The notes under the pieces: generated by a model
The model's database searches: none
Seen by the model: only the letters and a program-made list of their open reading frames with translations
Told to the model about the DNA's origin: nothing
Source: an uncultured virus (IMG/VR IMGVR_UViG_3300007734_000750)
Taxonomy: Duplodnaviria; Heunggongvirae; Uroviricota; Caudoviricetes
Reading direction: 5' to 3' (one strand)
Virus record (IMG/VR): IMGVR_UViG_3300007734_000750
DNA length: 20,000 nt
Part shown: in pieces, positions 6,345 to 20,000 of the stretch
How positions within the stretch are numbered: the stretch's first letter is position 1
Layout of the letters: each line of letters begins with the position of its first letter
Program-made: the position numbers and the translations under genes

Positions 6345-6815
6345 ATGGAAAATAATATGAAACCCCCCTGTAGAATATATCTTGATGATGTAAGAACTCC
6401 GACTGGCGATAATTGGATTGTTGTAAGAAATTACGATGAATTTGTTGTGGAAGTTAATAAAATTGGGTTGGAGAATATTGATATAATTTCTTTGGACCAC
6501 GATTTAGGTGATACTGCAATGAAAGAATATTTTGATAATGTTTCACCAAATTATACTTTGGATTACAGTAATATTCACGAAAAAACCGGTTATGATGCTA
6601 TTAAATTTTTGGTATCATTATTTCACAATACAAATGAAGAGAGATTTAATATGACAAGAAGTGAGAGAAAGGCTAATAAATTTGTGTTCCCAATTGTGTA
6701 TGTTCATTCTGCCAATCCAATCGGGGCGGGAAATATAATGGGTTTTTGTAACAATTTTTTAATGAACGAGGGTCAAGCGCAAACTTGTGTAAGAGTCCGA
6801 ATACCACACGTATAA
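6345..6815 (+). CDS. Cyclic-phosphate-processing receiver-domain protein
   Basis: IYLDDVR, ISLDHDLG, TGYD, VHSANP.G motifs; TATCTTTG element at 6321-6328. Confidence 0.8.
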   Translation: MENNMKPPCRIYLDDVRTPTGDNWIVVRNYDEFVVEVNKIGLENIDIISLDHDLGDTAMKEYFDNVSPNYTLDYSNIHEKTGYDAIKFLVSLFHNTNEERFNMTRSERKANKFVFPIVYVHSANPIGAGNIMGFCNNFLMNEGQAQTCVRVRIPHV

Positions 6816-7324
6816 TGAATATATTTTTCTTAGATGAGAATCCGACTTTGTCGGCAAAATACCACGTAGATAAACACGTAGTTAAAATGATTTTGGAAAC
6901 GGCTCAGTTATTGTGTTCGGTTCATCACACGACCCCCCAAGTTGGCACCCAAGTTACCCCCCAAGTACCCTACAAGTTGTCACATAAAAATCATCCTTGT
7001 GCGGTGTGGGCTCGTCAGAGTTTATCAAATTATTTGTATTTGTGTGAGTTGGGATTGGAATTGGGTAAAGAATATACCCACAGGTATGGTAAGAAACATA
7101 AATCAATTGAGGTGATTGAATGGTGTATTGTAAATAGACCTAACATTCCGGACATTGGTTTTACCACTCCGGCGAGAGCGATGCCGGATGAGTTTAAGGT
7201 AGATTCTGTTGTGGAATCTTATAGAAATTATTATATGGGGGCTAAAATTAATTTAGCTTCTTGGAAAAACAGAGAAAAACCTTTTTGGTTTGGAAAAAAA
7301 GAATTAGATTTGCAGTATGATTAA
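6815..7324 (+). CDS. Pyrimidine-dimer DNA glycosylase (DenV)-like protein
   Basis: MNIFFLD..DKHVVKMILETAQLL, H.NHPC..W, YRNYY; start reassigned to ATG 6815. Confidence 0.75.
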   Translation: MNIFFLDENPTLSAKYHVDKHVVKMILETAQLLCSVHHTTPQVGTQVTPQVPYKLSHKNHPCAVWARQSLSNYLYLCELGLELGKEYTHRYGKKHKSIEVIEWCIVNRPNIPDIGFTTPARAMPDEFKVDSVVESYRNYYMGAKINLASWKNREKPFWFGKKELDLQYD

Positions 7325-7967
7325 GATAGATAAAGATAGAAAGGTATGGATTATATCCGACACTCACTTTGGACATAAGAATATATGTAGAGGAGTGACC
7401 GAATGGCGTCTTCCTGATGGAAGTGTTCCAATATCTCAAACAAGAGATTTTAATACAATAGAACAGATGAACGAAACAATCGTCAATAACATTAATAGTG
7501 TTGTTGGGCAAGACGATGTGTTAATTCATCTTGGGGATTTTAGCTTCGGGGGTTTTGAAAACATCCAAAAGTTCAGAGATAGAATTTTGTGTAAAGAGAT
7601 TCACCTTATATTGGGAAATCACGATACAAGCATAGAAAAAAATAGAGAGAATGTACAAGAATTATTTACAAGTGTTAGTCACTACACAAAATTGATGTAT
7701 AAATTTAAAACATTTGTTTTATTTCACTATCCTGTAACGAGTTGGGATGGATTAAATAAAGGACATATCCAACTTCACGGGCACGTACATCTCCCAACAA
7801 ATTTAAGGTTTGGTAAAGGTAAAAAAATGGACGTTGGTATGGATGGTCACCCAACATTTGGCGTGTATGATATTGATGATATTATACGAATAATGGATAA
7901 ACGTGAGATTGCGTCGGATATGTTATTTGACCACCATACGGATGAATTAAAGGGTGTTGTTGGGTAA
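7317..7967 (+). CDS. Calcineurin-like metallophosphoesterase
   Basis: SDTH, LGD, GNHD, HYP, HGHVH motifs. Confidence 0.92.
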   Translation: MIKIDKDRKVWIISDTHFGHKNICRGVTEWRLPDGSVPISQTRDFNTIEQMNETIVNNINSVVGQDDVLIHLGDFSFGGFENIQKFRDRILCKEIHLILGNHDTSIEKNRENVQELFTSVSHYTKLMYKFKTFVLFHYPVTSWDGLNKGHIQLHGHVHLPTNLRFGKGKKMDVGMDGHPTFGVYDIDDIIRIMDKREIASDMLFDHHTDELKGVVG

Positions 7968-8576
7968 AAGGGGGATTTTATCCCTCTTTTCTAAATTGTC
8001 CCACCACCATAATGGTTGTAAATTAGTATAATGACAAAGTTTTTTTAATTCTTCATCATTTTTTGCGGAAGATAGGGGGGTAATATGGTCAATATGCCAA
8101 CCAAATTGTCCGTGATTTTCCCAAGACATTTCACCGGTAAATTTATTTTCTAAATGTAATTTTAATTCTATTGGAGAACAACCAATTAAATCAAAAGTTT
8201 TTTCTTTTTTTGTTTTTAAAATTTTATGTATTTTTGACCTATAAAGAGTTTTTAATTTAAATACTGGGTCATTTTTTTTTCTTTCACGAAGAGCTTTATT
8301 TAATCTATCTTTATTTTTTCTAACCCACTCTAATTTTCTTAAACTAATTCTTTCTTTGTTTTCAGTCGCATATTTGGAGGTTCTTTTTGATATTTTTGTT
8401 TTATTATCCTCTCTATATTTTTTATCGTATTCTTTTCTAATATCTTTTCTATTGTTTTGATATAATTTAACACAAATTTTACAATTAGATACTTTACCTA
8501 ATTTACCCTTACTTGAGTTATGAAATTCACATAATTCTTTTTCAATTTTACACTTAGTACAAATCTTTGATTCCAT
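7947..8576 (-). CDS. HNH-type endonuclease with N-terminal Zn motif (copy 1)
   Basis: CTKC..CKIC; WHIDHITPLSSA..LCHYTNLQPLW..DNL.K. Confidence 0.85.
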   Translation of the reverse strand: MESKICTKCKIEKELCEFHNSSKGKLGKVSNCKICVKLYQNNRKDIRKEYDKKYREDNKTKISKRTSKYATENKERISLRKLEWVRKNKDRLNKALRERKKNDPVFKLKTLYRSKIHKILKTKKEKTFDLIGCSPIELKLHLENKFTGEMSWENHGQFGWHIDHITPLSSAKNDEELKKLCHYTNLQPLWWWDNLEKRDKIPLLPNNTL

Positions 8577-8709
8577 AATATTTTCTTAATAATTTTTCAA
8601 TTAATTTTGATTTATTGGTTAAATCATCTTCCATTTTTTTGTTAATTTCCGGAGTTAAAGTTATGGATACTTTAACACGCTTGTCTTCTTCTTTTAATGT
8701 TGGTCTCAT
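8554..8709 (-). CDS. 51-aa ribbon-helix-helix-like protein (MRPTLKEEDKRVKVSITL...)
   Basis: Manually translated; alternating beta strand then NKSKLIEKLL helix; paralog at 19425-19577. Confidence 0.75.
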   Translation of the reverse strand: MRPTLKEEDKRVKVSITLTPEINKKMEDDLTNKSKLIEKLLRKYYGIKDLY

Positions 8710-8784
8710 ATATATAAATATACGGAAAAAATGTAAAATACTATTTTTATTAAAAAAAAATGTTTATCTTTGTAAAAAAATAAT

Positions 8785-9048
8785 ATGTTAAACACAAGAG
8801 TAGAAGACAACCACTTTAATGAAGATGATTCATTAATATCGTCACGGATTATAATTGAGGTTCCATTATCTCACGAAATGTTACAAGATTGTTATTCGTA
8901 TGCAGCAATGGATGCACCATCTGAAATTAAAAGAATGTTGATGGAATTTCTTGGTGATACAATTGATGAAATCATTTTAGGTAAAAGACCTGATAATGTT
9001 GATGAACAATGGTTAAGAAGAAAACTAATAGAAGTAAAAGTAATATGA
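8785..9048 (+). CDS. Hypothetical protein, 87 aa
   Basis: ORF after TATCTTTG (8765-8772). Confidence 0.75.
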   Translation: MLNTRVEDNHFNEDDSLISSRIIIEVPLSHEMLQDCYSYAAMDAPSEIKRMLMEFLGDTIDEIILGKRPDNVDEQWLRRKLIEVKVI

Positions 9049-9335
9049 GAATTAAACAAACAAAAAAAGATTTATTTGTGTGTTCCTGTCATAACACGGA
9101 ACATCAAATGGTTGTCCTATATGATGAGGACGATATTGATGGTGTAAGATTTCCAATGGTTTATATTCACACACATTTGGTTAAACGCCCATTTTGGCAA
9201 AGAGTTGGTTATGGATTGAAATATATTTTTGGACATCAATCAAGATACGGAGCGTTTGATGAGTTCATCATTAATCCTGATGACGTTGAAGGTATTGAAA
9301 AAATTGTTAAATATTTAAAAGAATGTGAATTATGA
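9045..9335 (+). CDS. Hypothetical protein (start likely MRIKQ)
   Basis: ATGA overlap coupling with both neighbours. Confidence 0.75.
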   Translation: MRIKQTKKDLFVCSCHNTEHQMVVLYDEDDIDGVRFPMVYIHTHLVKRPFWQRVGYGLKYIFGHQSRYGAFDEFIINPDDVEGIEKIVKYLKECEL

Positions 9336-9727
9336 AAGAGTTATTTTTATTGAGAGGATTACCGGGAAGTGGTAAATCAACATTGGCAAAAATGTTAGTT
9401 GGTGATAAAGATTATTGTCACAAAGAGGCGGATATGTATTTTGTCGATAGGGATGGTAACTACAAATTTGATGTTACATCATTAAGAGATGCTCACGCTT
9501 GGTGTCAAGAAGAAGTTGAGTTCCTTATGAAATACGAACATAAAGTTGTAGTATCAAATACATTCACCCAAGAGTGGGAAATGACACCTTATTTTGAATT
9601 AGCGGAAAAATATGGTTACAGAGTTCATTCACTTATTGTAGAGAATAGACACGGAGGTGTTAATGTACACGGGGTTCCGGAAGATAAATTGGAAATAATG
9701 AAAAATCGTTTTGAAACGAAACTTTAA
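9332..9727 (+). CDS. P-loop kinase (polynucleotide-kinase/AAA_33-like)
   Basis: LRGLPGSGKST Walker A, EAD, VVVSNTF, HGVP motifs. Confidence 0.85.
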   Translation: MKELFLLRGLPGSGKSTLAKMLVGDKDYCHKEADMYFVDRDGNYKFDVTSLRDAHAWCQEEVEFLMKYEHKVVVSNTFTQEWEMTPYFELAEKYGYRVHSLIVENRHGGVNVHGVPEDKLEIMKNRFETKL

Positions 9728-9760
9728 TTCCATATCTTTGTCCCCTAAAATTATTTAACT

Positions 9761-10090
9761 ATGAGCGGAGGAGCATTTGATTACAACCAATATAAGATTG
9801 GTTACATCGCAGACCAAATAGAGCAAACAATTATTAAGAATGGTCTTGAGAAAACACAAGAAGAACTTAAAAACGAAAGTTGGAGAGACGATTCTTGGTA
9901 TGAAAAATACCCTGAGGACTTCTTCCATTACAAATACCCGGATGAGGTTATTGAGAAGATGAAAGAGGCGGTTAAAGCTCTTCATATTGCTCAAGAATAC
10001 GCTCAACGAGTGGATTGGTTATTATCAGGTGATGATGGTGAGGAATCATTCTTAAGTAGATTGGAAGAAAATTTGAAAAAAATAGAATAA
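9761..10090 (+). CDS. Hypothetical protein, 109 aa
   Basis: ORF after promoter TTTG 9710 / TATCTTTG 9733; MSGGAFDY..DWLLSGDDGE. Confidence 0.8.
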   Translation: MSGGAFDYNQYKIGYIADQIEQTIIKNGLEKTQEELKNESWRDDSWYEKYPEDFFHYKYPDEVIEKMKEAVKALHIAQEYAQRVDWLLSGDDGEESFLSRLEENLKKIE

Positions 10091-10091
10091 G

Positions 10092-11117
10092 ATGTTAGAA
10101 AAACTAAACAAATATTACGAAGACGGGTTACTTTACAAACAAGTACATCCATACCTCCCATTAACCATATGGAACTATTCAGAAAAGTGCCAATATGAAA
10201 ATCTTTGGGACGAAACTCTTTTGATGTGTAGAGGTTTAGTTACCGACCATACCGGAGACATTGTTGCAAAACCTTTTGATAAATTCTTCAACATAGAGGA
10301 AGGAAAATTTGAACCAACTGAAAAGTTTGAGGTTTATGAAAAAATGGATGGCTCACTTTTAATAGTTTTTTGGTATGAGGGTCAATGGGTGGTTGCCACT
10401 CGTGGGTCATTTGGTTCAGACCAAGCAATTAAGGGTAGAGAATTACTTAAAAAATATAACACCGACATAATGTTCAGACATCAGACTTTCTGCTTTGAAG
10501 TTCTCTATAAAAATAATCGTATAGTGGTAGATTACGGTGATTATGAAGGGTTAGTCCTATTAGGAACCTTTGATAAGAATGGTAAAGAATATGATGTGGA
10601 AATGTGGAGAGAATACGGGTTTGATGTGGTTAAAAAATACGATGGTATCAATGACTACAAACAACTAAAAGAAATGGTTAAAAACGACCAAGAGGGGTTC
10701 GTAGTGAAGTTCTCCAATGGGGATAGAGTCAAAGTTAAAGGTGCCGAGTATCTTCGTCTTCACAAAATAATGACCAACGTCACTACAACCGGAGTTTGGG
10801 AGTATTTAAAAAATGGTGAAGATGTTTTGGAATTATTAAAAGATGTTCCGGACGAATTTTATAAAAAAATTCAAAACTATGTTAAAGAATTAAGATATGG
10901 TTATTTTCAAATATCTGAAGATGCGGGTAAAAAGTTTGACGGTAAAATGTATGGTAAATACAACGACAAAGAACCTATTGAAGATAGAAAAGAGTTTGCT
11001 GAGTGGGTATTAACCCAACCTAAACATATGTCAGGGATTCTATTCAGAATGTTTGATAAAAAAGATTACTCTGAAATCATATGGAACCTAATCAGACCGG
11101 AATTTAAAAAACTATAA
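10092..11117 (+). CDS. T4 Rnl1-like RNA ligase
   Basis: CRGLV, KFFN, EKMDGS (motif I), TRGSF, EGFVV, VKVK..EY. Confidence 0.9.
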   Translation: MLEKLNKYYEDGLLYKQVHPYLPLTIWNYSEKCQYENLWDETLLMCRGLVTDHTGDIVAKPFDKFFNIEEGKFEPTEKFEVYEKMDGSLLIVFWYEGQWVVATRGSFGSDQAIKGRELLKKYNTDIMFRHQTFCFEVLYKNNRIVVDYGDYEGLVLLGTFDKNGKEYDVEMWREYGFDVVKKYDGINDYKQLKEMVKNDQEGFVVKFSNGDRVKVKGAEYLRLHKIMTNVTTTGVWEYLKNGEDVLELLKDVPDEFYKKIQNYVKELRYGYFQISEDAGKKFDGKMYGKYNDKEPIEDRKEFAEWVLTQPKHMSGILFRMFDKKDYSEIIWNLIRPEFKKL

Positions 11118-11904: not shown

Positions 11905-13890
11905 TTATATTCCTCCATCTGTTATTGTCCAACCGTAACCACCACTTAATGTTGAACCTGTTAATATTGCTTTTCCGGCAGAACCTTCTGATGTATATTT
12001 AATTGAACCAAAGTTAATTGTTAGTCCGGTTTTTGGGTTTTTGGTTGACCAACCATTATATATTAAATTTAAATTAGTTGATGAATAATTTAAATTAGTT
12101 TTATTAATCATAAAATAATTAAAATCAGTTACTCCGGATATATTCCAACTTCCAATAGGTTGATTAAATGATGTTGCATTTGCAAACATAGCGTTCATAT
12201 TTGTAACACCAGAAACATTCCAATTATTAATTGATGATGAACCACCATTATTAAACGACGTGGCGTTTGAAAACATAGCAAGAGTAAATGTGTTTTTTGA
12301 TAAATCCCAATTCCCAATATTTTGATTAAATACCGTCGCACCCGCAAACATTTGTTGTGTATTTGTTACTTTTGACGTATCCCAACTTCCAATAGGTTGG
12401 TTAAATGACGATGTTAAAAACATATTTGCCATACTAAGAACATTTGAAGTTGTCCAACCACTTATTGATGGAGACCCTTCATTATTAAAAGATGATGAAG
12501 AGAACATACTTGTCATACCAGTAACACTTGAAACATTCCAATTCCCAATATTTTTGTTAAAATTTGTTGCCGATTGAAACATACTACTCATATTAGTGAC
12601 ATTTGAAACATTCCATCCCGATAATGGTTGATTAAAAATTGTTGCATTTCTAAACATATTCTCCATTCTAGTGACCCCTGAAACATTCCAATTTCCAATT
12701 GGTTGGTTAAAATTTGAGTTACCATAGAACATATAATCCATTCTAGTGACCTTTGAAACATTCCACCCTGATAATGGTTGATTAAAATTTGATGCTAATT
12801 GGAACATACCATCCATTCTAGTGACCCCTGAAACATTCCAAGAACTAATTGATTGATTAAAATTTGTACAACCAGCAAACATATTAAACATAGTAGTCAC
12901 TTTTGAAACATTCCAAGAACCAATTGGTTGATTAAAATTTACGCAATTAGAAAACATACCTGTCATACCAGTAACATTAGATACGTCCCAACTATTTCCG
13001 TTATTAATAGTTGTTAACGACGTACACTGATAAAACATATAAGTTAAATCTGGTGTGTTTGATAAATTTAGTGTATCAGTAACACCTGTTAAAACTAAAT
13101 TAGTACATTGATTAAAATAATAACCTGGATAAGTGTTAACATTATTTGATAATATTATATTACCCCACTGTTTAATCTCAAGAATATTACTTGCGTTGGG
13201 TAGTGATAAAAATCTAAATCCTATAATGGTTCCGGTAATTTTAATGGTGTATATTCCGGCATTTGTATAAATGTGTTGTCTATTACTATATGAATTAGTT
13301 GATTGACTACCATCACCCCAATCAATGACCCCGGTATATGTTCCGTCGGGTAAGTAAGGTAACGAGATTGTTTGATTAGTATTTGCTGACCAAGTTGAAA
13401 TGAATGAATATGTTGGTGTTGTTCCTGACCCCTCCGTTATTTCTAATTGATATAATGTATCGTAAGGAATATTTTGATTTAATGAATTTAAATAAAGTTT
13501 TGATAATAACAACATTGTTGTATCATCGGAAAATTGTGAAAGACCTAAATTACCTAACGTAACTTTAATAACATTAACTTTAGAATTTTGACTAATAACA
13601 GGGTTTAATGGGTCGGTATTATTAACACCATCACCGGTTACACTTTGAACCCCACTACCACCAGAAACAGGCCCCCAACTTGCATTACCTGAACCATCTG
13701 ATGTTAATACATATCCTGCTTGTTCAGAACCATTCGAAAATTTAAAACTTGAGATAATTGTTAATCCGGATAAAAATATTGGATTAACGGGAATACCCCC
13801 ACCAATACGGTAAATATTACCGGTTGATAGGTCAGATTGGAGAACATAATTATAAGAATCCTTAATTAATTGATTAGAAATATCAGACAT
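11905..13890 (-). CDS. DUF285/BspA-type repeat protein with PKD-like domain, putative virion adhesin
   Basis: About 12 repeats FNQPIGxWNVSxVTxMxxMF; IDWGDG..H.Y...G.Y; N-terminal GYVLTSDGSGNASW fibre-like motif. Confidence 0.85.
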   Translation of the reverse strand: MSDISNQLIKDSYNYVLQSDLSTGNIYRIGGGIPVNPIFLSGLTIISSFKFSNGSEQAGYVLTSDGSGNASWGPVSGGSGVQSVTGDGVNNTDPLNPVISQNSKVNVIKVTLGNLGLSQFSDDTTMLLLSKLYLNSLNQNIPYDTLYQLEITEGSGTTPTYSFISTWSANTNQTISLPYLPDGTYTGVIDWGDGSQSTNSYSNRQHIYTNAGIYTIKITGTIIGFRFLSLPNASNILEIKQWGNIILSNNVNTYPGYYFNQCTNLVLTGVTDTLNLSNTPDLTYMFYQCTSLTTINNGNSWDVSNVTGMTGMFSNCVNFNQPIGSWNVSKVTTMFNMFAGCTNFNQSISSWNVSGVTRMDGMFQLASNFNQPLSGWNVSKVTRMDYMFYGNSNFNQPIGNWNVSGVTRMENMFRNATIFNQPLSGWNVSNVTNMSSMFQSATNFNKNIGNWNVSSVTGMTSMFSSSSFNNEGSPSISGWTTSNVLSMANMFLTSSFNQPIGSWDTSKVTNTQQMFAGATVFNQNIGNWDLSKNTFTLAMFSNATSFNNGGSSSINNWNVSGVTNMNAMFANATSFNQPIGSWNISGVTDFNYFMINKTNLNYSSTNLNLIYNGWSTKNPKTGLTINFGSIKYTSEGSAGKAILTGSTLSGGYGWTITDGGI

Positions 13891-13928: not shown

Positions 13929-14255
13929 ATGGGAAGCATTTGTTATTCTTGGGATGATACACCTTTCGCGTGGATGGAGACACCATTTACGTGGAAAGAG
14001 GCCTGCGTAATTCAGAAAATTGTTGGTGCAGGAGGTATTGGACCAAGAATCCGTAAAAAAATGAAAGAATTAAGGCAAGACGAAGTCGCAACCTTAATTG
14101 GATTATTTGTGAGATTAGATGTTGATGAGATTGAATTTGAGACAAGAGTTAATAAAACTAAGAACAATAAAGTCACCGTAAAGTTAAAAGATGTTGAAAT
14201 TTTAATGAAAGAACAAAAATATATTAAGGTTAATGTGTCAATTATAAAAGATTAA
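13929..14255 (+). CDS. Hypothetical protein, 108 aa
   Basis: ORF with W-rich N-terminus. Confidence 0.75.
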   Translation: MGSICYSWDDTPFAWMETPFTWKEACVIQKIVGAGGIGPRIRKKMKELRQDEVATLIGLFVRLDVDEIEFETRVNKTKNNKVTVKLKDVEILMKEQKYIKVNVSIIKD

Positions 14256-14269
14256 GATATTTATTTGTT

Positions 14270-14818
14270 ATGAGTTACTTATTATATACAGACAAGGCAA
14301 ATAAATTCAATTGTAATATACAAATTGAAGGAACTTCTTTAGCGAAATCTAAAGTAAGATTAGTAATTGAGACAGATGAAATGTCTTATATGTTTAATGG
14401 TGCTATCGAAAACACTGGAGTGTGTGAGGTAAATATTCCAAAAACTAAACATTTTTTACCTGAAGGAACAAAAGGTAATATGAGATTAGAGGTTATTGCC
14501 GATGATGTCTATTTTGAGCCTTGGAGTTCTGACTTTGGTGTAAAAACAAATAAAAAAGTTAATGTTGTTGTTTCAGAACAAGAAGAAGAAAAACCAAGAT
14601 TAACAGTTGAGGTTTTCCAACAAGAGGAACCAATTATTGAAGAACCAAAAGTTAAAGTGGTTGAAAACCATAAACCTAAAGTTGCGGAACTTCCAAAGAA
14701 AAAAATTGTAGAATCCATAGTTAAAAAACCTGAAATGATGGTGGTTAGAACTAAAAGCGGTCAAAAATTACAAATTACAAAGGAACAATTCTTAAAAAAC
14801 TTTGGTAATTTAAAATAA
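14270..14818 (+). CDS. Hypothetical protein, 182 aa
   Basis: Beta-rich N-domain and charged tail; TATTTAT at 14258. Confidence 0.8.
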   Translation: MSYLLYTDKANKFNCNIQIEGTSLAKSKVRLVIETDEMSYMFNGAIENTGVCEVNIPKTKHFLPEGTKGNMRLEVIADDVYFEPWSSDFGVKTNKKVNVVVSEQEEEKPRLTVEVFQQEEPIIEEPKVKVVENHKPKVAELPKKKIVESIVKKPEMMVVRTKSGQKLQITKEQFLKNFGNLK

Positions 14819-14823
14819 AATTT

Positions 14824-15429
14824 ATGAGTGTGTCTATAATAGTAGCGTTTATCACGGGGGTTTTAGGTCCTCTTCTATTATTATTCATTAAGAATAAATT
14901 AGATAAAAAGGTTGAAAAACCTGATATGGTATTGGAAACATTAAAAGTTAGCGAACTTATAATGACCAAAATGGAACATATCAAAGAAGAATTTAAATCT
15001 GATAGAGTTTGGATTACCCAATTCCATAATGGTGGTAATTTTTACCCAACAGGAAAATCAATGGCAAAATTCAGTATTATGTATGAAGTTGTTGGTCCCG
15101 GAATACAATCAGTTCAAACAAATTTCCACAATATCCCTGTTAATTTATTTAGCCGTTCAATCAATCAATTATTGGAAAACGATGTAATTGAAATCTCCGA
15201 CTTTAAAGATGAAACTGTTGCAACATTTGGTTTAAAATATATTGCCGAAGACACAGGATGTAAATCAGGTTATTTATTCGCAATTAAAACTTTAGATGGT
15301 AAATTTATTGGAACATTAGGTTTAGATTATACCAGAAGAAAAACAAAATTAGATATTGAATCTATAAGTCATTTACAACAACATTCCGCATCCATTGGTG
15401 GTGTTCTAATGACACATTTAACTCAATAA
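14824..15429 (+). CDS. N-terminal TM plus GAF-like domain protein, possible T4 T-type holin
   Basis: Hydrophobic residues 4-22; DRVWITQFHNGG..IGTLGLDY. Confidence 0.55.
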   Translation: MSVSIIVAFITGVLGPLLLLFIKNKLDKKVEKPDMVLETLKVSELIMTKMEHIKEEFKSDRVWITQFHNGGNFYPTGKSMAKFSIMYEVVGPGIQSVQTNFHNIPVNLFSRSINQLLENDVIEISDFKDETVATFGLKYIAEDTGCKSGYLFAIKTLDGKFIGTLGLDYTRRKTKLDIESISHLQQHSASIGGVLMTHLTQ

Positions 15430-15430
15430 T

Positions 15431-16042
15431 ATGAAAAAATTAATAACACTAATCGAGGCGGTTGAGGCAGTTGATACTTCAAAATATTCTAATATAAAGT
15501 GGGAAGGTTCTGCGGCGTCAGATAAAATAAATTCATCATTATTAGCTGAAATTAATGCTGCAGCCAATTCAGCGGATATTATTGTTACCGTTTCAACGGC
15601 AAATTCAGGACATAAAACTCACACCTCTTCAGGTAATGTAAGTAGACATAAAACCGGTGAGGCTGTTGATATTTCAAGAATAAATGGAACGGGTTGGTCA
15701 AGTAAAAAAGATGCTCAATCAAAAAACATATTAAGTCAAATTGAAAGTTTTGTTGGTAAATTATCAAGTGCGGGGTATAAAGTTAATAGTGAATCAGGTA
15801 ATCTTAAATCTGTGTTGTATTTTGGGTTTCCGGAACACGATGACCATATTCACGTTTCAAGTCAATCTGATGACATATCAACTGATTTAAACACAGATGA
15901 CGTAGATAGTTCAGATGACCCAGGAAAAAATTTTATGATTGATTTAATTTCAGGAGCGGCTAAAACATTAGGATTAACAAATGAAAGTAAGCAAAATAGG
16001 ATAATAAATAATATAGATAGAATCAAACAATTATTAAAATAA
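15431..16042 (+). CDS. Zn-peptidase M15/LAS-type protein, possible peptidoglycan hydrolase
   Basis: SRH..GEAVDI (H-x6-D) and HDDHIHVS (HxH). Confidence 0.65.
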   Translation: MKKLITLIEAVEAVDTSKYSNIKWEGSAASDKINSSLLAEINAAANSADIIVTVSTANSGHKTHTSSGNVSRHKTGEAVDISRINGTGWSSKKDAQSKNILSQIESFVGKLSSAGYKVNSESGNLKSVLYFGFPEHDDHIHVSSQSDDISTDLNTDDVDSSDDPGKNFMIDLISGAAKTLGLTNESKQNRIINNIDRIKQLLK

Positions 16043-16071
16043 AAAACCCCTCCGAAGAGGGGTTATTTGTT
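16041..16071. terminator. Bidirectional terminator
   Basis: AACCCCTC-CGAA-GAGGGGTT flanked by A and T tracts. Confidence 0.85.
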
Positions 16072-16236
16072 TTACTTCACTTCAGTAGTATCTACTTGAG
16101 TGGTATCAACTGATGTAGAATCTACAGATGTTGAATCAGCAACAACTTCAGTTGCTTCGTCTTGTTTTACTTCGTTTTTACAAGATGTTAAAGATAACGT
16201 TGCAATTACTGCAAGGGCTAAAAATACTTTTTTCAT
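16072..16236 (-). CDS. 54-aa lipoprotein (MKKVFLALAVIATLSLTSC-KNEVKQDE...)
   Basis: Manually translated; SPII signal with lipobox LTSC; D-S/T-T repeats. Confidence 0.8.
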   Translation of the reverse strand: MKKVFLALAVIATLSLTSCKNEVKQDEATEVVADSTSVDSTSVDTTQVDTTEVK

Positions 16237-16368
16237 AATAATTTGTTTTTAATGTTAATTTTAAGTTCGTTAAAATTATAGTTTATTACTTTCATCATAT
16301 CAAGTTCTATGCCAAAAAAATTTACGGAATCGTTGTAGTAAAAAAAATAAAAAAATTTTTAAAAAAAG

Positions 16369-16399
16369 TTTGGCAGTTTGAATTTAAGGCTTATCTTTG
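16369..16399 (+). promoter_or_regulatory. Bacteroidota-type promoter
   Basis: TTTG 16369, 19-nt spacer, TATCTTTG 16392-16399. Confidence 0.75.
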
Positions 16400-16422
16400 T
16401 ATCGGATTTAAAACTAATCATT

Positions 16423-16677
16423 ATGGCTAAAGAGAAATTGTATAGAAGTGTTAAAGGTGAATACCTATATTTGTTTAATTGGATTGGTGGTGGATTTAAT
16501 GATGTGTGGGCACCAAGTAAAAGAGAGGCGTATGCTCGTGTTATGAGAGAACAGAAAGAACACGAGAAAAAATACCCAACTCACTCTAAGTTGAGACCGG
16601 ATTATAAGACAATGAGAAAATGTACTTATTCTCAGTATCAAGAACAGAACCGAATGGGTTGGATGATGAGTATGTAA
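16423..16677 (+). CDS. Hypothetical protein, 84 aa (MAKEKLYRS...)
   Basis: Start reassigned to ATG downstream of promoter. Confidence 0.75.
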   Translation: MAKEKLYRSVKGEYLYLFNWIGGGFNDVWAPSKREAYARVMREQKEHEKKYPTHSKLRPDYKTMRKCTYSQYQEQNRMGWMMSM

Positions 16678-16832
16678 AAACTACTTGAGTAAGTGGGAGT
16701 GGTCAATCAACAACCCAAAGAAGTTTCAGGTAAAACTATATTTAAAAGAGGACGGCCGAGCCTATAATAGAGTAAGTAGGAAGTTAGTGTTTTTTAAGAA
16801 GATTGAGTCAGTTTTTAACATTAGCGAAACAT

Positions 16833-16934
16833 AGTCAGGAGACCATTGGTTGGTATCACCTCCCCAAGGTTGAGTAGCGGTAAGGCCGACTCTTTATGGC
16901 AAAGACGGAACAGGTTCGAATCCTGTCCTGACTA
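16833..16934 (+). ncRNA. tRNA-like RNA with multiple hairpins in place of anticodon arm
   Basis: Acceptor AGTCAGG/CCTGACT, T-arm ACAGG-TTCGAAT-CCTGT; internal ACCA/TGGT, ACCT/AGGT, GAGT/ACTC stems. Confidence 0.65.
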
Positions 16935-16948
16935 CTAAATTAAATTAT

Positions 16949-17086
16949 ATGGCAACATTAGAAACACAATACAAGAATTATATGAGAATTCACCCGGAAT
17001 CAAAATTTACGTTTGATGAATGGAAAGAGGCGTGGGGTAAAGAACTTAAAGAAGCATTAACAGAACTTGAAAAAAAACAAAAATAA
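16949..17086 (+). CDS. Hypothetical protein, 45 aa (MATLETQYKNY...)
   Basis: Manually translated ORF. Confidence 0.65.
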   Translation: MATLETQYKNYMRIHPESKFTFDEWKEAWGKELKEALTELEKKQK

Positions 17087-17088
17087 TT

Positions 17089-17247
17089 ATGGAAACAGTT
17101 ATATTACAATTTGGATTGATGGTATTAAACCTATTCTCCGCAAAAACACAAAAAGAAAATGGTAAAAATCCTGCATTCAGTTATTTTGTATCCGGAATGT
17201 GTTTTAGTTTTGGTTTAATAAAATTAATAGAATTATTTTTAAAATAA
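17089..17247 (+). CDS. Small membrane protein, 52 aa (METVILQFGL...)
   Basis: Manually translated; two hydrophobic segments. Confidence 0.6.
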   Translation: METVILQFGLMVLNLFSAKTQKENGKNPAFSYFVSGMCFSFGLIKLIELFLK

Positions 17248-17308
17248 TTTGACAGATTAAAATAAAAGTATTATCTTTGTAGAAGAAATAAAGTTCTTAA
17301 AATTATTG
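17248..17308 (+). promoter_or_regulatory. Bacteroidota-type promoter plus boxA-like element
   Basis: TTTG 17248, TATCTTTG 17272-17279, GTTCTTAAAATTATTG 17293-17308. Confidence 0.7.
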
Positions 17309-17316
17309 AAAAAATA

Positions 17317-17391
17317 GGTGGACGTTGTGTCGAGGATTCAAATCCCTCCGGTCTTAACCCCGTAGCTCAGATGGTAGAGCATACGTCCACT
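17317..17391 (+). ncRNA. Circularly permuted tRNA-like RNA 1
   Basis: Terminal stem GGTGGACGT/ACGTCCACT; order GTC, T-arm (GAGGA-TTCAAAT-CCCTC), looped acceptor, D-arm (TA-GCTC-AGATGGTA-GAGC). Confidence 0.8.
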
Positions 17392-17401
17392 AACTTATAA
17401 T

Positions 17402-17492
17402 GACACTGTAGCTCAGTGGGAGATTTATTTCCCTTGGTAGAGCAGGAGTAACGAAAGACTCTGTGCCATAGGTTCGAAGCCTGTCGGTGTCA
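17402..17492 (+). ncRNA. Deviant tRNA-like RNA (D-loop hairpin insert, 8-nt anticodon loop)
   Basis: Acceptor GACACTG/CGGTGTC, D-stem GCTC/GAGC with GGGAGA..TTTCCC insert, GGAGT-AACGAAAG-ACTCT, T-arm ATAGG-TTCGAAG-CCTGT. Confidence 0.75.
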
Positions 17493-17496
17493 CAAA

Positions 17497-17585
17497 ATGT
17501 GTAGTGTAATGTCGTTGGTTCGATTCCAACAACCGTAATCGTGATGACCAAGGTTTAGCTATAATGGTAGAGCGTACACACACAT
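17497..17585 (+). ncRNA. Circularly permuted tRNA-like RNA 2
   Basis: Terminal stem ATGTGT-A-GTGTA/TACAC-ACACAT; GTC, T-arm GTTGG-TTCGATT-CCAAC, AACC..GGTT looped acceptor, D-arm TA-GCTA-TAATGGTA-GAGC. Confidence 0.8.
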
Positions 17586-17592
17586 AATTTAT

Positions 17593-17822
17593 TCTGTGAT
17601 AAGATAGCAGATAGACCTATTACAGCAGAACCCCATAGGGAGTCAGAAATGACGAGCAATATGGAGCCCCTATCAGATTACAGTTGAGGAGGTACTCAAA
17701 GATAACCGTGAGGTTAACAAGAAATAAACGATGGTTTGGGTAGAACAGATGTTAAAGGCGAGTTTTAGGTAGTACAGAATGGGTGACCTACGAATGAGTA
17801 AATCTTAAGGTCTTATCACAGA
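17593..17822 (+). ncRNA. Candidate 230-nt structured RNA
   Basis: 12-bp closing stem TCTGTGATAAGA/TCTTATCACAGA; GTCA-GAAA-TGAC, TAACC-GTGA-GGTTA, TTGAG/CTCAA, TAGGT/ACCTA. Confidence 0.7.
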
Positions 17823-17857
17823 TTAAAAAAAAAATAAAAAAAAACTTTACAAAAGTG

Positions 17858-17930
17858 TTTGACAAATGAAAAAAATCACTTACCTTTGTAAAACAAATGA
17901 GGAAAACCTCAAGACGTTCTTAGAAATTTT
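17858..17930 (+). promoter_or_regulatory. Bacteroidota-type promoter plus boxA-like element
   Basis: TTTG 17858, 19-nt spacer, TACCTTTG 17881-17888, GTTCTTAGAAA from 17916. Confidence 0.7.
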
Positions 17931-17931
17931 A

Positions 17932-18772
17932 GATTATCCTTTACCCACTTCGGTGGAGTAAAAAACGATAATTGGCTGTGTATAGTCATCAAATAAACTC
18001 AGAAATGAGGATTAAAGTGGAACCATCAGTGTTATTGGTTCTGCGGCTTCTGAAAGGGAGCTCGAGTACACAAGTGGGATATCAGTGAGCCTGTAGTACC
18101 GAGGATAACTTCGTAGGGAAATGGAAAACTGAATGGGCAATGTGGATTGTCTGTTTGAGGTGGGAACACCAAAAAAAATAACCCATAGGGATTATGTGAG
18201 AAGTAAAGTTATCCGACTTTATAATTGCGGGTTCCAACTTAATAGGTATCTTAAAATCGAAAGGTAAGATGAGTAACAGGTGGTGCTGTCATCATCCTTA
18301 TCAATCACCCACCAAGGTGATGGTATGAAGATGTCTTGAAAAGTGGAGATAGGGATATCTCATCGAGAAGTTTAGTATTTTGTCTCTCAAAAGGAGACGA
18401 AGCTTATGGTAGACTACTTCTTGAACACATCCACAACACAATTACTATTTTCAATATGGTGAAAAACTAAAAGAAACATAGCAAAAATGTCTACCCGATG
18501 TCATTGACAAGTTGCCTACTTAGTTATGGGATGTCCATAGCACACAAAGACCGCAAGTTAATGTGTATTCTTACCAAAAACCTCTACGGAGTCGAATCCG
18601 GAGTCAGGTCGCAAGCTTGAAGAGAGTTGAATAATGAGAGAGTAAATGATATCGTAAGGAGTGATTAGTCTAACTAATCGGCAATGAGGATTACATCCCA
18701 AAAGGGTGTGGAAAAGAAGTCAAACAATAAAACTTCTAAAGATTCTCAATAAGACGAGTATTCTCATCGTAT
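17932..18772 (+). ncRNA. Large (about 840 nt) ornate RNA, GOLLD-like
   Basis: No ORF of 60 aa or more; dedicated promoter and terminator; many GNRA/UUCG hairpins; size and tRNA-rich phage context fit GOLLD. Confidence 0.65.
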
Positions 18773-18778
18773 TAAGCC

Positions 18779-18812
18779 AAAAAGGTGTTACAGTAATGTG
18801 ACACCTTTTTTT
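18779..18812. terminator. Bidirectional terminator
   Basis: AAAAAGGTGTTACA-GTAA-TGTGACACCTTTTT. Confidence 0.88.
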
Positions 18813-18814
18813 GT

Positions 18815-19444
18815 TTATAATATTTTATCACCTTTACTTAAATTATCAAATGCCCATAGTGGTTGTAAATTTGTGTAATGACATAACTGATAAATTTCTT
18901 CATCAGTTTTTGCCGAAGATAAAGGAATTTTATGGTCAATATGAATATGTTGACCTAATAATTCCCAAGACATACCTTCAGTAAATTGATTCTCAATGTG
19001 AATCTTAAGAAATTCCGGTGAACAACCCACAATATTTATAGTGTTATTTCTTTTGGTTATTTTTCTAATTCGTAAAAATTCATTCAGACGACATCTTACT
19101 AGTGTTATTAAATGATATTGTGAATCATTTTTTCGTTTATTTTTCATATAATTATTAATATATTCCTTATTGTTCTGTCTCCACTTACGATTGTTATTTT
19201 CAATTTTTTCTTTGTTATTTTCTTTATATTTTTTAATTATTGTTTTATGTATTTCAGGATTATTTATCTTAAATTGTTTGTTATAAACAGGATATTTATT
19301 TGGATTTTGAGTTCTCCAAACTTTGTGGTAAAACTTAATACAACTTTTACATTCACTTCGCAGACCATCATTAGAATCTTTCCGTTTTTGAAACTCACAA
19401 AGTTCTTTTTCTTCTTTACATTTACTACAAACTTTTTTTTCCAT
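18815..19444 (-). CDS. HNH-type endonuclease with N-terminal Zn motif (copy 2)
   Basis: CSKC..CKSC; HIDHKIPLSSA..LCHYTNLQPLW..DNLSK; paralog of 7947-8576. Confidence 0.85.
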   Translation of the reverse strand: MEKKVCSKCKEEKELCEFQKRKDSNDGLRSECKSCIKFYHKVWRTQNPNKYPVYNKQFKINNPEIHKTIIKKYKENNKEKIENNNRKWRQNNKEYINNYMKNKRKNDSQYHLITLVRCRLNEFLRIRKITKRNNTINIVGCSPEFLKIHIENQFTEGMSWELLGQHIHIDHKIPLSSAKTDEEIYQLCHYTNLQPLWAFDNLSKGDKIL

Positions 19445-19577
19445 AATGTTCTTTTAATAGTGTTTCAATCAGACGAGATTTGTTAATCATCTCATCTTCC
19501 ATTTTTTTGTAAATAACCGGGTCAACACAGATTCCAAACTTTACTTTTTTATCTTCTTCTTTTTTTCTTGGGTTCAT
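19425..19577 (-). CDS. 50-aa ribbon-helix-helix-like protein (MNPRKKEEDKKVKFGICVD...)
   Basis: Manually translated; paralog of 8554-8709 with the same overlap onto the HNH start. Confidence 0.75.
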   Translation of the reverse strand: MNPRKKEEDKKVKFGICVDPVIYKKMEDEMINKSRLIETLLKEHYGKKSL

Positions 19578-19666
19578 AATATCTCTTTATTATAAATATC
19601 TCAAAAAGTATAAAAAGTCATAATTATTAGAAAAAAATTATTTATTTTTTTCATATATTTATTGGT

Positions 19667-20000
19667 ATGAAAATTATAATAACAGAAAGTAGATTAGAGA
19701 GACTTGCCATTAATTGGTTGAACGATAACTATGGTGATTTGAAATCATTTAAAACGGAAAAATATCCTTGTTGTATTTATTACTTAAAAAATAAAAAGGT
19801 GATTCTTGAATATAATAAAAAAGATAAGGATGTTTTTATTGATTATGAAATTTCGTCATTTTTAAAATATATGTTAAGTATGGATTCTTCGGAAATTCAA
19901 GAATTAACAAAGAAATGGTTAAAGGAACGTTACAACTTAAAAATAAGAACCATTTATAGCGGTGATATAGATGGGTTTAATGATAGTGAAATAGTTGAGG
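19667..20000 (+). CDS. Partial hypothetical protein (MKIIITESRL...), runs off window
   Basis: Open frame to window end; TATTTAT at 19656. Confidence 0.75.
   Translation, partial: MKIIITESRLERLAINWLNDNYGDLKSFKTEKYPCCIYYLKNKKVILEYNKKDKDVFIDYEISSFLKYMLSMDSSEIQELTKKWLKERYNLKIRTIYSGDIDGFNDSEIVE

What the first reader, a model, noticed from the sequence alone, without database searches (positions are those of the whole stretch)
17932..18772. About 840-nt ornate non-coding RNA with its own promoter and terminator (GOLLD-like)
Seen: ORF-free region with hairpins CCAC-TTCG-GTGG, CTCA-GAAA-TGAG, GCTTCT-GAAA-GGGAGC, GGTG-GGAA-CACC, GAGATA-GGGA-TATCTC, GATTAGT/ACTAATC, two GCAA-capped stems, and a possible pseudoknot ATGAGAG (18634) with TTCTCAT (18761). 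An AT-rich linker near 18440-18490 splits it into two domains. Known: GOLLD RNAs are about 800 nt, often tRNA-adjacent in phages, and of unknown function. The class assignment is inference.
Basis: partly seen in the sequence, partly recalled or inferred. Interest (0 to 1): 0.8.

Follow-up and report, generated by a model that had tools for sequence, protein, structure and literature searches.

The report
Lake-phage GOLLD cage RNA gene
This stretch is an intact, full-length copy of a known giant phage RNA (GOLLD) that builds hollow RNA-only cages; it sits in a large lake phage behind a start signal like the one its likely hosts use for their ribosomal RNA, and related phages appear to swap its halves.

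Summary
Confirmed: a full-length lake-type GOLLD RNA at 17932-18770. Rfam GOLLD matches 18363-18770 over the whole model (287.9 bits, cut-off 150). The 5' half, outside that model, matches the env-38 cryo-EM RNA by eye and covaries in 33 homologs. Counterparts of the base-paired inter-chain contacts are kept, so a 14-mer-type cage is likely. Exact contigs occur in lake metatranscriptomes.

Two first-reader details fail. The proposed pseudoknot is unsupported (64% paired, shuffle level); the last loop pairs with 18710-18713 instead. The AT-rich linker lies inside the 3' domain, not between the domains.

Extras: a Bacteroidota-type promoter, hairpin and boxA-like motif precede the RNA (52 of 53 lake-type loci versus 7 of 779 controls). 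The same pattern precedes 16S genes in Bacteroidota genomes (29 of 121 hits). Relatives show mosaic GOLLD alleles, one switching at the domain border.

This scan already reported GOLLD with a boxA leader on other DNA. Verdict: new member of a known family; biological role still inferred.

The parts
17858..17888 (+). Bacteroidota sigma-A-type promoter (TTTG element 17858-17861, TAnnTTTG box 17881-17888); predicted start about 17893
   Evidence: Motif scan; box placed at -12 to -5 in PMC9723704 (passages); the start site is inferred, not measured
17898..17911 (+). Small 5' hairpin (boxB-like position)
   Evidence: Fold; role inferred from rRNA-leader layout (PMC13753749 passages)
17916..17926 (+). 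boxA-like motif GTTCTTAGAAA, one base off the commonest form GTTCTTTGAAA
   Evidence: 52 of 53 lake-type loci versus 7 of 779 control windows; the commonest form precedes 16S genes in Bacteroidota genomes
17932..17973 (+). First, length-variable hairpin of GOLLD (P1; helix names are my mapping)
   Evidence: Fold; variable between conserved ends in alignment A1
17974..18362 (+). GOLLD 5' (cap) domain, env-38/lake type, including long-range helix 17978-83/18066-71 and kissing elements 18212-14/18353-55 and 18281-84/18311-14
   Evidence: 75 of 101 predicted pairs in this domain have double-sided changes (my count); helices tested; by-eye match to env-38
18363..18770 (+). GOLLD 3' (ring) domain
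   Evidence: Rfam RF02032, 287.9 bits, full model; covariation
18425..18488 (+). AT-rich variable linker inside the 3' domain, no tRNA inserted; ends in the GC dinucleotide 18481-82 that pairs with loop 18553-54
   Evidence: GC content; enclosing helix and pair; ARAGORN finds no tRNA here
18710..18764 (+). Supported pseudoknot of the last loop: 18710-13 with 18761-64
   Evidence: 132 of 132 cells paired; 18713/18761 switches UA 18 / AU 15; agrees with the env-38 text that L27 pairs with J24/26
18779..18813 (+). Intrinsic terminator, probably shared with the convergent ORF 18815-19444 (-)
   Evidence: ORF; an RNA contig ends in adapter at 18777 (weak hint)
17272..17822 (+). Neighbouring small-RNA unit with its own promoter box and boxA-like motif (17272-17301): two YrlA-like tRNA mimics (17305-17404, 17490-17602), an atypical tRNA-like gene (17402-17493) and an unclassified 229-nt RNA (17594-17822)
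   Evidence: (YrlA 34.5 and 26.4 bits, both below cut-off 69)

Best explanation
A stable non-coding GOLLD RNA gene of a jumbo lake phage (relatives about 320 kb) that probably infects Bacteroidota. Step 1 (inferred, about 0.85): host sigma-A RNA polymerase starts near 17893. Step 2 (inferred, about 0.6): the 5' hairpin and boxA load the host's rRNA-type NusB-S10/NusG elongation complex, which protects the long untranslated transcript from Rho and helps it fold. Step 3 (inferred): transcription ends at the 18779-18813 terminator. Step 4 (shown by Rfam and covariation, about 0.98): the RNA folds into the two-domain GOLLD structure. Step 5 (inferred from env-38, about 0.8): copies assemble through loop-loop and A-minor bridges into a closed, protein-free cage of the 14-mer type, with the AT-rich linker inside. 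Biological role (inferred, about 0.35, my leading guess): an abundant, stable RNA container or scaffold that holds translation-related cargo (ribosomal subunits, tRNAs or tRNA-like RNAs) and supports phage protein synthesis during infection. The confidence given is for steps 1-5 as a whole, not for the role.
For: Rfam. Covariation: 136 of 183 pairs with double-sided changes; 40 long-range pairs 99.5% paired, 0 of 500 shuffles as high, slid controls 33-51%. Bridge counterparts in 33 sequences: B2 33/33; B4 core 32, 33 and 30 of 33; B5 132/132 cells; B7 33 and 32 of 33 with compensation; B8 loop CG in 24 and GC in 9; B9 GC 33/33. The extra helices that separate env-38 (14-mer) from the Streptococcus dodecamer, P11a-c and P21b per PMC12990946 section 6, have counterparts by my mapping. 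RNA contigs with 0-1 differences cross the domain border in 4 of 4 runs laid. Leader: (the promoter-plus-boxA pattern occurs exactly twice in each of G001-G003; in G002 and G003 these two sites fall in the stretches matching the small-RNA unit and GOLLD). No NusB gene in 5 of 5 virus records, 2 of them complete, so the factor would be the host's. Context: 13 further tRNA calls in the window, an RNA ligase, bS21 in 3 of 5 relatives. Ribosome pull-down and linker tRNAs are cited in PMC12286853 section 9.
Against: No cage, start site, strand or level was measured: all runs are contigs, and RNA libraries can hold DNA. This copy's boxA differs from the commonest form at one base (5 of 33 homologs share that variant). 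81 of 121 genome hits of the promoter-boxA pattern have no stable-RNA gene that I could detect. The pattern is absent from G004 and G005. One of the five env-38 B4 pairs is a G-G mismatch here. A-minor bridges B1, B3, B6 and B10 could only be checked as loop sequences. The linker here carries no tRNA. Nothing here tests cargo or role.
Confidence: 0.7

Rival explanations
1. Same RNA and cage, but it works as a decoy or sink against host anti-phage RNases or RNA-sensing defences, together with the neighbouring tRNA mimics and RNA-repair enzymes.
For: Lies beside two YrlA-like mimics and an atypical tRNA. RNA ligase and phosphoesterase genes in the window. GOLLD alleles differ much more than the adjacent small RNAs among close relatives (L235: 95-100% upstream, 56-88% in GOLLD blocks), which could reflect diversifying pressure.
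Against: No target identified. The loops used for cage contacts are conserved, and most variation is compensated in stems, which does not need an arms race.
Confidence: 0.25
2. The boxA-like motif is not an antitermination signal here but a processing or leader remnant copied from a host stable-RNA promoter; GOLLD is made by ordinary elongation.
For: One-base departure in this copy. No such motif 700-830 nt upstream in 21 of 21 loci with other 5' ends (these GOLLDs are shorter, so the window may miss their leader). No functional data.
Against: Kept in 52 of 53 lake-type loci whose neighbouring P1 is highly variable. In the window it follows the two non-coding-RNA promoters but none of the other 41 TAnnTTTG matches.
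Confidence: 0.3
3. In the cell the RNA acts as a monomer or protein-bound particle, and the cage forms only in vitro.
For: All cage data seen are in vitro (PMC12286853 passages). Most of my covarying pairs cannot tell intra- from inter-molecular pairing.
Against: The self-complementary loop dinucleotide switches between CG (24) and GC (9) in 33 homologs; adjacent bases cannot pair within one chain, the argument made in PMC12286853. env-38 stays 14-meric at nanomolar levels.
Confidence: 0.15
4. Not an RNA gene or not GOLLD (chance hairpins, a new class, or ROOL/OLE/HEARO).
For: None found.
Against: GOLLD is the only non-tRNA family above cut-off in the window; covariation.
Confidence: 0.01

Closest known systems
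GOLLD RNA, Rfam RF02032; env-38 14-mer cage (Kretsch et al. 2025, PMC12286853)
   Same: Full-model Rfam match; about 840 nt; same two-domain plan; linker inside the 3' domain; loop motifs and base-paired bridge sites have counterparts.
   Different: Different stem sequences. B7 uses GC/GC where env-38 uses GA/UC, B8 uses CG where env-38 uses GC, and one B4 pair is a mismatch. It has an upstream P1 hairpin and its own promoter-boxA leader, whereas env-38 was described as downstream of a Met-tRNA.
Streptococcus agalactiae GOLLD (dodecamer; review PMC12990946 section 6)
   Same: Conserved 3' domain and family.
   Different: That RNA lacks P9, P11a-c and P21b. This copy has counterparts of P11a-c and P21b by my mapping, so it is the env-38 type.
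Bacterial rRNA-operon leader (5' hairpin plus boxA; rrn antitermination complex)
   Same: Promoter, small hairpin, then boxA-like motif. The same pattern precedes 16S genes in 29 of 121 genome hits; all 21 of those with a visible name are Bacteroidota.
   Different: Downstream is a phage cage RNA, not rRNA; one base differs from the commonest form; Nus binding is untested.
bS21-encoding freshwater jumbo phages of Bacteroidetes (Chen et al. 2022, PMC9723584)
   Same: Syntenic relatives G002 and G003 are 318-322 kb, encode bS21 and carry the tRNA cluster; the paper gives 293-331 kb.
   Different: The window's own genome is not held, so clade membership was not tested. The passages read do not mention non-coding RNAs.

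Membership tests
GOLLD RNA (RF02032) | Covariance-model match of the conserved 3' domain above the curated cut-off | tested here: met
   287.9 bits versus 150, model positions 1-416 of 416
GOLLD RNA (RF02032) | Structured 5' domain, total length about 800 nt or more | tested here: met
   17932-18770 = 839 nt; 75 of 101 5'-domain pairs compensated (my count); by-eye match to env-38
GOLLD RNA (RF02032) | Known pseudoknots (L27 with J24/26, L22, linker-closing helix) | tested here: met
   Helices 4, 6, 8 and 9 are 100% paired; helix 8 never varies, so it carries no covariation
GOLLD RNA (RF02032) | Phage or prophage location near tRNA genes | tested here: met
   14 tRNA calls in the window; synteny with complete 318-322 kb virus records
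GOLLD RNA (RF02032) | Expressed as an abundant discrete RNA during infection | tested here: inconclusive
   21 RNA runs hold part of the stretch; exact contigs in 4 of 4 runs laid; contigs give no strand, ends or level
env-38-type 14-mer cage | Base-paired inter-chain bridges B2, B4, B5, B7, B8, B9 | tested here: met
   Counterparts paired or palindromic in 30-33 of 33 homologs; B4 has 4 of 5 env-38 pairs possible here; mapping by eye from supplement tables
env-38-type 14-mer cage | A-minor bridges B1, B3, B6, B10 | tested here: inconclusive
   Donor loops (GAAA, GGAA, CAAAA types) are conserved; receptor geometry not testable
env-38-type 14-mer cage | Actual assembly and stoichiometry | not testable with these tools
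   Needs mass photometry or cryo-EM
rrn-type antitermination leader | boxA-like motif shortly after the promoter and a 5' hairpin, like the host group's rRNA leader | tested here: met
   one mismatch to the commonest form
rrn-type antitermination leader | NusB-S10 binding and antitermination | not testable with these tools
   No experiment; no phage NusB in 5 records
ROOL / OLE / HEARO | Rfam match | tested here: not met
   No hit at cut-off in the window or at E up to 10 in 16600-18400

The most novel reading that the evidence does not exclude
Lake jumbo phages make GOLLD the way their Bacteroidota hosts make ribosomal RNA, by loading the host rRNA antitermination and folding complex at a copied boxA leader. 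They also exchange GOLLD as modules, including whole 5' cap versus 3' ring domains with crossovers at the P11/P12 border, so natural chimeric cages exist and show which inter-domain contacts matter.
Probability: 0.5. Interest if true: 0.5.

Novelty: new member of a known kind. Interest (0 to 1): 0.3.

Why it matters
GOLLD's function is an open question, and its cage structure was solved only in 2025. This copy adds no new class. It does offer testable handles: a defined host-type promoter and boxA leader (how a phage makes a long untranslated RNA), a probable host group with laboratory models, presence in lake RNA libraries, and natural allele pairs that share one domain but not the other, useful for asking what sets cage assembly and size.

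Tried and rejected
An alternative register 18638-44/18759-65 pairs in 203 of 231 cells, but the one variable loop base breaks it in 18 of 33 sequences, so it was rejected in favour of 18710-13/18761-64.

Sigma-70 promoter scan: no enrichment and the site is not listed.

Own genome not held, so host and completeness rest on relatives. The GenBank phage search gave only two unannotated 630-640 kb records at 67-70%.

In one search the flanking protein genes (14000-16600, 18824-20000) had almost no contig cover. The runs were chosen for holding the RNA region and contigs do not show absence, so this is not used as evidence of expression level.

Ro60/TROVE as partner of the neighbouring mimics: found in 1 of 5 records (G004), not in the closest three.

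The 229-nt upstream RNA: no Rfam family at E up to 10 in long or short form. RNase P, 6S and group I intron were considered from recalled motifs only and not supported. Homologs are too alike to test covariation.

In one search the rows L211, L215, L216 and L228 were mis-oriented and dropped; one search repeats the comparison correctly. One search left out 10 of 85 loci with under 830 nt upstream. A1 was selected on having boxA (53 of 85 loci, reduced to 32 plus the window at under 95% identity), so boxA invariance in A1 is not evidence; the count was selected on a 5'-domain motif instead and includes near-duplicates. One search missed L211 and its copies.

Literature: GOLLD plus boxA returned 4 papers and GOLLD plus Bacteroid 11, all unrelated by title; searches listed none on this either. 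The library lacks most subscription papers; I did not see Weinberg 2009 or its supplement, which may already note the leader.

Full report
Identity. A scan of the whole window against Rfam gave 14 matches at cut-off: 13 tRNAs and GOLLD RF02032 at 18363-18770 (+), 287.9 bits against a cut-off of 150, E 1e-81, model positions 1-416 of 416. The Rfam model covers only the 3' half, so the 5' half (17932-18362) was tested separately. It folds better than all 100 shuffles (z -4.1). By eye it follows the env-38 GOLLD sequence and residue tables in supplementary file 1, part 2 of Kretsch et al. 2025 (PMC12286853). I did not see the paper's figures, so my helix numbers are a mapping from its text and tables and from section 6 of the review PMC12990946.

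Homologs and covariation. Of these, 53 had the lake-type leader and full length; they were reduced to 32 at under 95% identity plus the window and aligned as A1 (mean column identity 66%). RNAalifold predicts 183 pairs, 136 with a double-sided change; by my count from that table 75 of the 101 pairs inside the 5' domain have one. Nine long-range helices (40 pairs) are paired in 99.5% of cells, with 21 compensated pairs, no shuffle of 500 as high, and slid controls at 33-51%. These sequences are related, so cell counts overstate independent events, and several of the helices were chosen from this same alignment.

The proposed pseudoknot 18634-40/18761-67 pairs in 148 of 231 cells, and 319 of 500 shuffles do as well. 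Its 5' strand belongs to helix 18569-73/18635-39 (164 of 165 cells). An unbiased mutual-information scan instead links 18761 to 18713; the helix 18710-13/18761-64 is paired in all 33 sequences, with UA in 18 and AU in 15. This agrees with the cryo-EM text that loop L27 pairs with linker J24/26. The AT-rich linker is closed by helix 18408-14/18489-95, so it lies within the 3' domain, as in env-38, where the domains are residues 1-420 and 421-833 and the linker is 497-538.

Cage contacts. Counterparts of the base-paired env-38 bridges are kept in A1: B2 33 of 33; B4 three core pairs 32, 33 and 30 of 33 (a fifth env-38 pair is G-G in the window, and the first is poorly aligned); B5 132 of 132 cells; B7 33 and 32 of 33 with compensatory changes; the B8 loop has CG in 24 and GC in 9; B9 has GC in 33. 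Donor loops of the A-minor bridges are conserved, but their receptors cannot be tested by pairing. Counterparts of P11a-c and P21b, which the streptococcal dodecamer lacks, are present. A 14-mer-type cage is therefore inferred, not shown.

Presence in RNA libraries. Of 24 listed runs holding part of 17300-18800, 21 are on record as RNA, from lake or freshwater metatranscriptomes; the 24 rows span 20 studies, some possibly one campaign. Four were laid. One 742-nt contig matches 17948-18689 with no difference, and contigs with 0-1 differences cross position 18344 in all four. Contigs show presence only: not strand, ends or level, and such libraries can hold DNA.

Phage and host. The window's genome is not held. 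It is syntenic with two complete virus records of 318 and 322 kb. Both encode bS21 (3 of 5 records tested), like the freshwater Bacteroidetes phages of Chen et al. 2022 (PMC9723584, passages). The promoter has the TAnnTTTG box described for Flavobacterium sigma-A at -12 to -5 (PMC9723704, passages), giving a predicted start at 17893. A Bacteroidota host is inferred.

Leader. After the promoter come a small hairpin (17898-17911) and GTTCTTAGAAA (17916-17926). A motif of this kind lies 700-830 nt upstream of the anchor in 52 of 53 loci chosen by a 5'-domain motif, against 7 of 779 control windows, and in 1 of 22 other loci (that one is lake-type; 10 of 85 loci were too short; near-duplicates are included). 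In 29 a 16S start motif lies 70-212 nt downstream, never upstream or on the other strand; all 21 of these with a visible name are Bacteroidota. Eight more lead into a tRNA-Thr gene, 3 carry a tmRNA-like start (label recalled), and 81 are unexplained. PMC13753749 (passages) gives the E. coli and B. subtilis boxA consensus and the hairpin-then-boxA layout. In G001-G003 the pattern occurs exactly twice per record, in G004 and G005 not at all. No NusB is encoded in those 5 records. Against: this copy has a one-base variant shared by 5 of 33 homologs, and nothing tests binding. I saw the motif, before one search showed that this scan had reported GOLLD behind an rRNA-style leader on other DNA (e1-8125475, e1-5812679); those notes are not independent evidence. 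Searches for GOLLD with boxA or Bacteroid found only unrelated papers; Weinberg 2009 and its supplement were not available.

Mosaic alleles. L227 has 4 mismatches to the window over 18344-18772 but is 64-86% identical per 50-nt bin over 17950-18349; L211 also switches to 90-100% near 18350. Among 44 distinct sequences, 4 of 946 pairs share one whole domain at 93% or more and the other at 85% or less. 25 of 946 pairs have an internal switch; the switches fall near 18160 (3 pairs), 18334-18344 (3) and 18475-18512 (16), with single ones at 18249, 18605 and 18619 (pairs are not independent). This fits the separate cap and ring domains of the cryo-EM model. The window's own junction is bridged by RNA contigs, but L227 and L041 are single assemblies and could be chimeras.

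Mechanism and verdict. Shown: a GOLLD gene with intact, covarying structure. Inferred: host sigma-A start, Nus-assisted elongation, intrinsic termination at 18779-18813, cage assembly. The role is least certain. I favour a stable container or scaffold for translation-related cargo (about 0.35), given the tRNA cluster, tRNA mimics, RNA ligase and bS21 context and the ribosome pull-down cited in PMC12286853 section 9. A decoy against RNA-targeting defence is next (about 0.25). The finding is real but a new member of a known, structurally solved family; interest 0.3.

Papers seen: PMC12286853 (abstract, passages, sections 7 and 9, supplement file 1 passages and part 2; file 3 searched with no hit; the zip with alignments not opened, one spreadsheet too large). 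PMC12990946 (abstract, section 6). PMC13753749, PMC9723584, PMC9723704, PMC6582537 (passages). All others as search listings only.

Noticed in passing
window 17594-17822 (+); L207-L236: Unclassified structured RNA closed by a long helix (z -3.1), no Rfam match. 23 of 30 pattern hits are homologs: 10 long and 13 short forms of about 117 nt in which a multi-stem insert of about 128 nt is replaced by one hairpin; 20 have GOLLD within 1.2 kb downstream. Both forms occur in RNA contigs. Core nearly invariant; function unknown.
   Followed up: partly
window 17305-17404 and 17490-17602 (+): Two YrlA-like permuted tRNA mimics (T arm before D arm), below the Rfam cut-off. No TROVE/Ro60 in the three closest records, present in G004. 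Already noted by this scan on other DNA.
   Followed up: partly
window 17402-17493 (+): Atypical tRNA-like gene with a hairpin inserted in the D loop and an 8-nt anticodon loop. ARAGORN calls it Pro here, and Thr, Pro or undetermined in relatives, so the call is unreliable.
   Followed up: partly
L212, L215, L216, L221, L225, L041 (upstream of the 229-nt element or of GOLLD): A further element of about 190 nt closed by a terminal helix, absent from the window, sits in the same small-RNA unit of relatives; the unit looks like an exchangeable cassette array. No Rfam match in L215.
   Followed up: no
L011, L025, L047, L050 and others: Stacks of two to four tandem Bacteroidota-type promoter boxes precede GOLLD in many relatives.
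   Followed up: no
window 16868-16934 (+): Weak tRNA-like element with a clear T arm (19.7 bits, E 0.61), conserved in relatives.
   Followed up: no
window 7947-8576 (-) and 18815-19444 (-): Two similar 209-aa ORFs with Cys-pair and HIDH motifs (look like homing endonucleases, recalled; no Pfam hit). The second converges on the GOLLD terminator.
   Followed up: no
window 6345-11117 (+): Cluster with a cREC receiver, a metallophosphoesterase, an AAA_33 kinase-like protein and a T4-type RNA ligase: a probable RNA-repair set between the tRNA array and the non-coding RNA cluster.
   Followed up: no
window 11905-13890 (-): 661-aa protein with DUF285 repeats.
   Followed up: no
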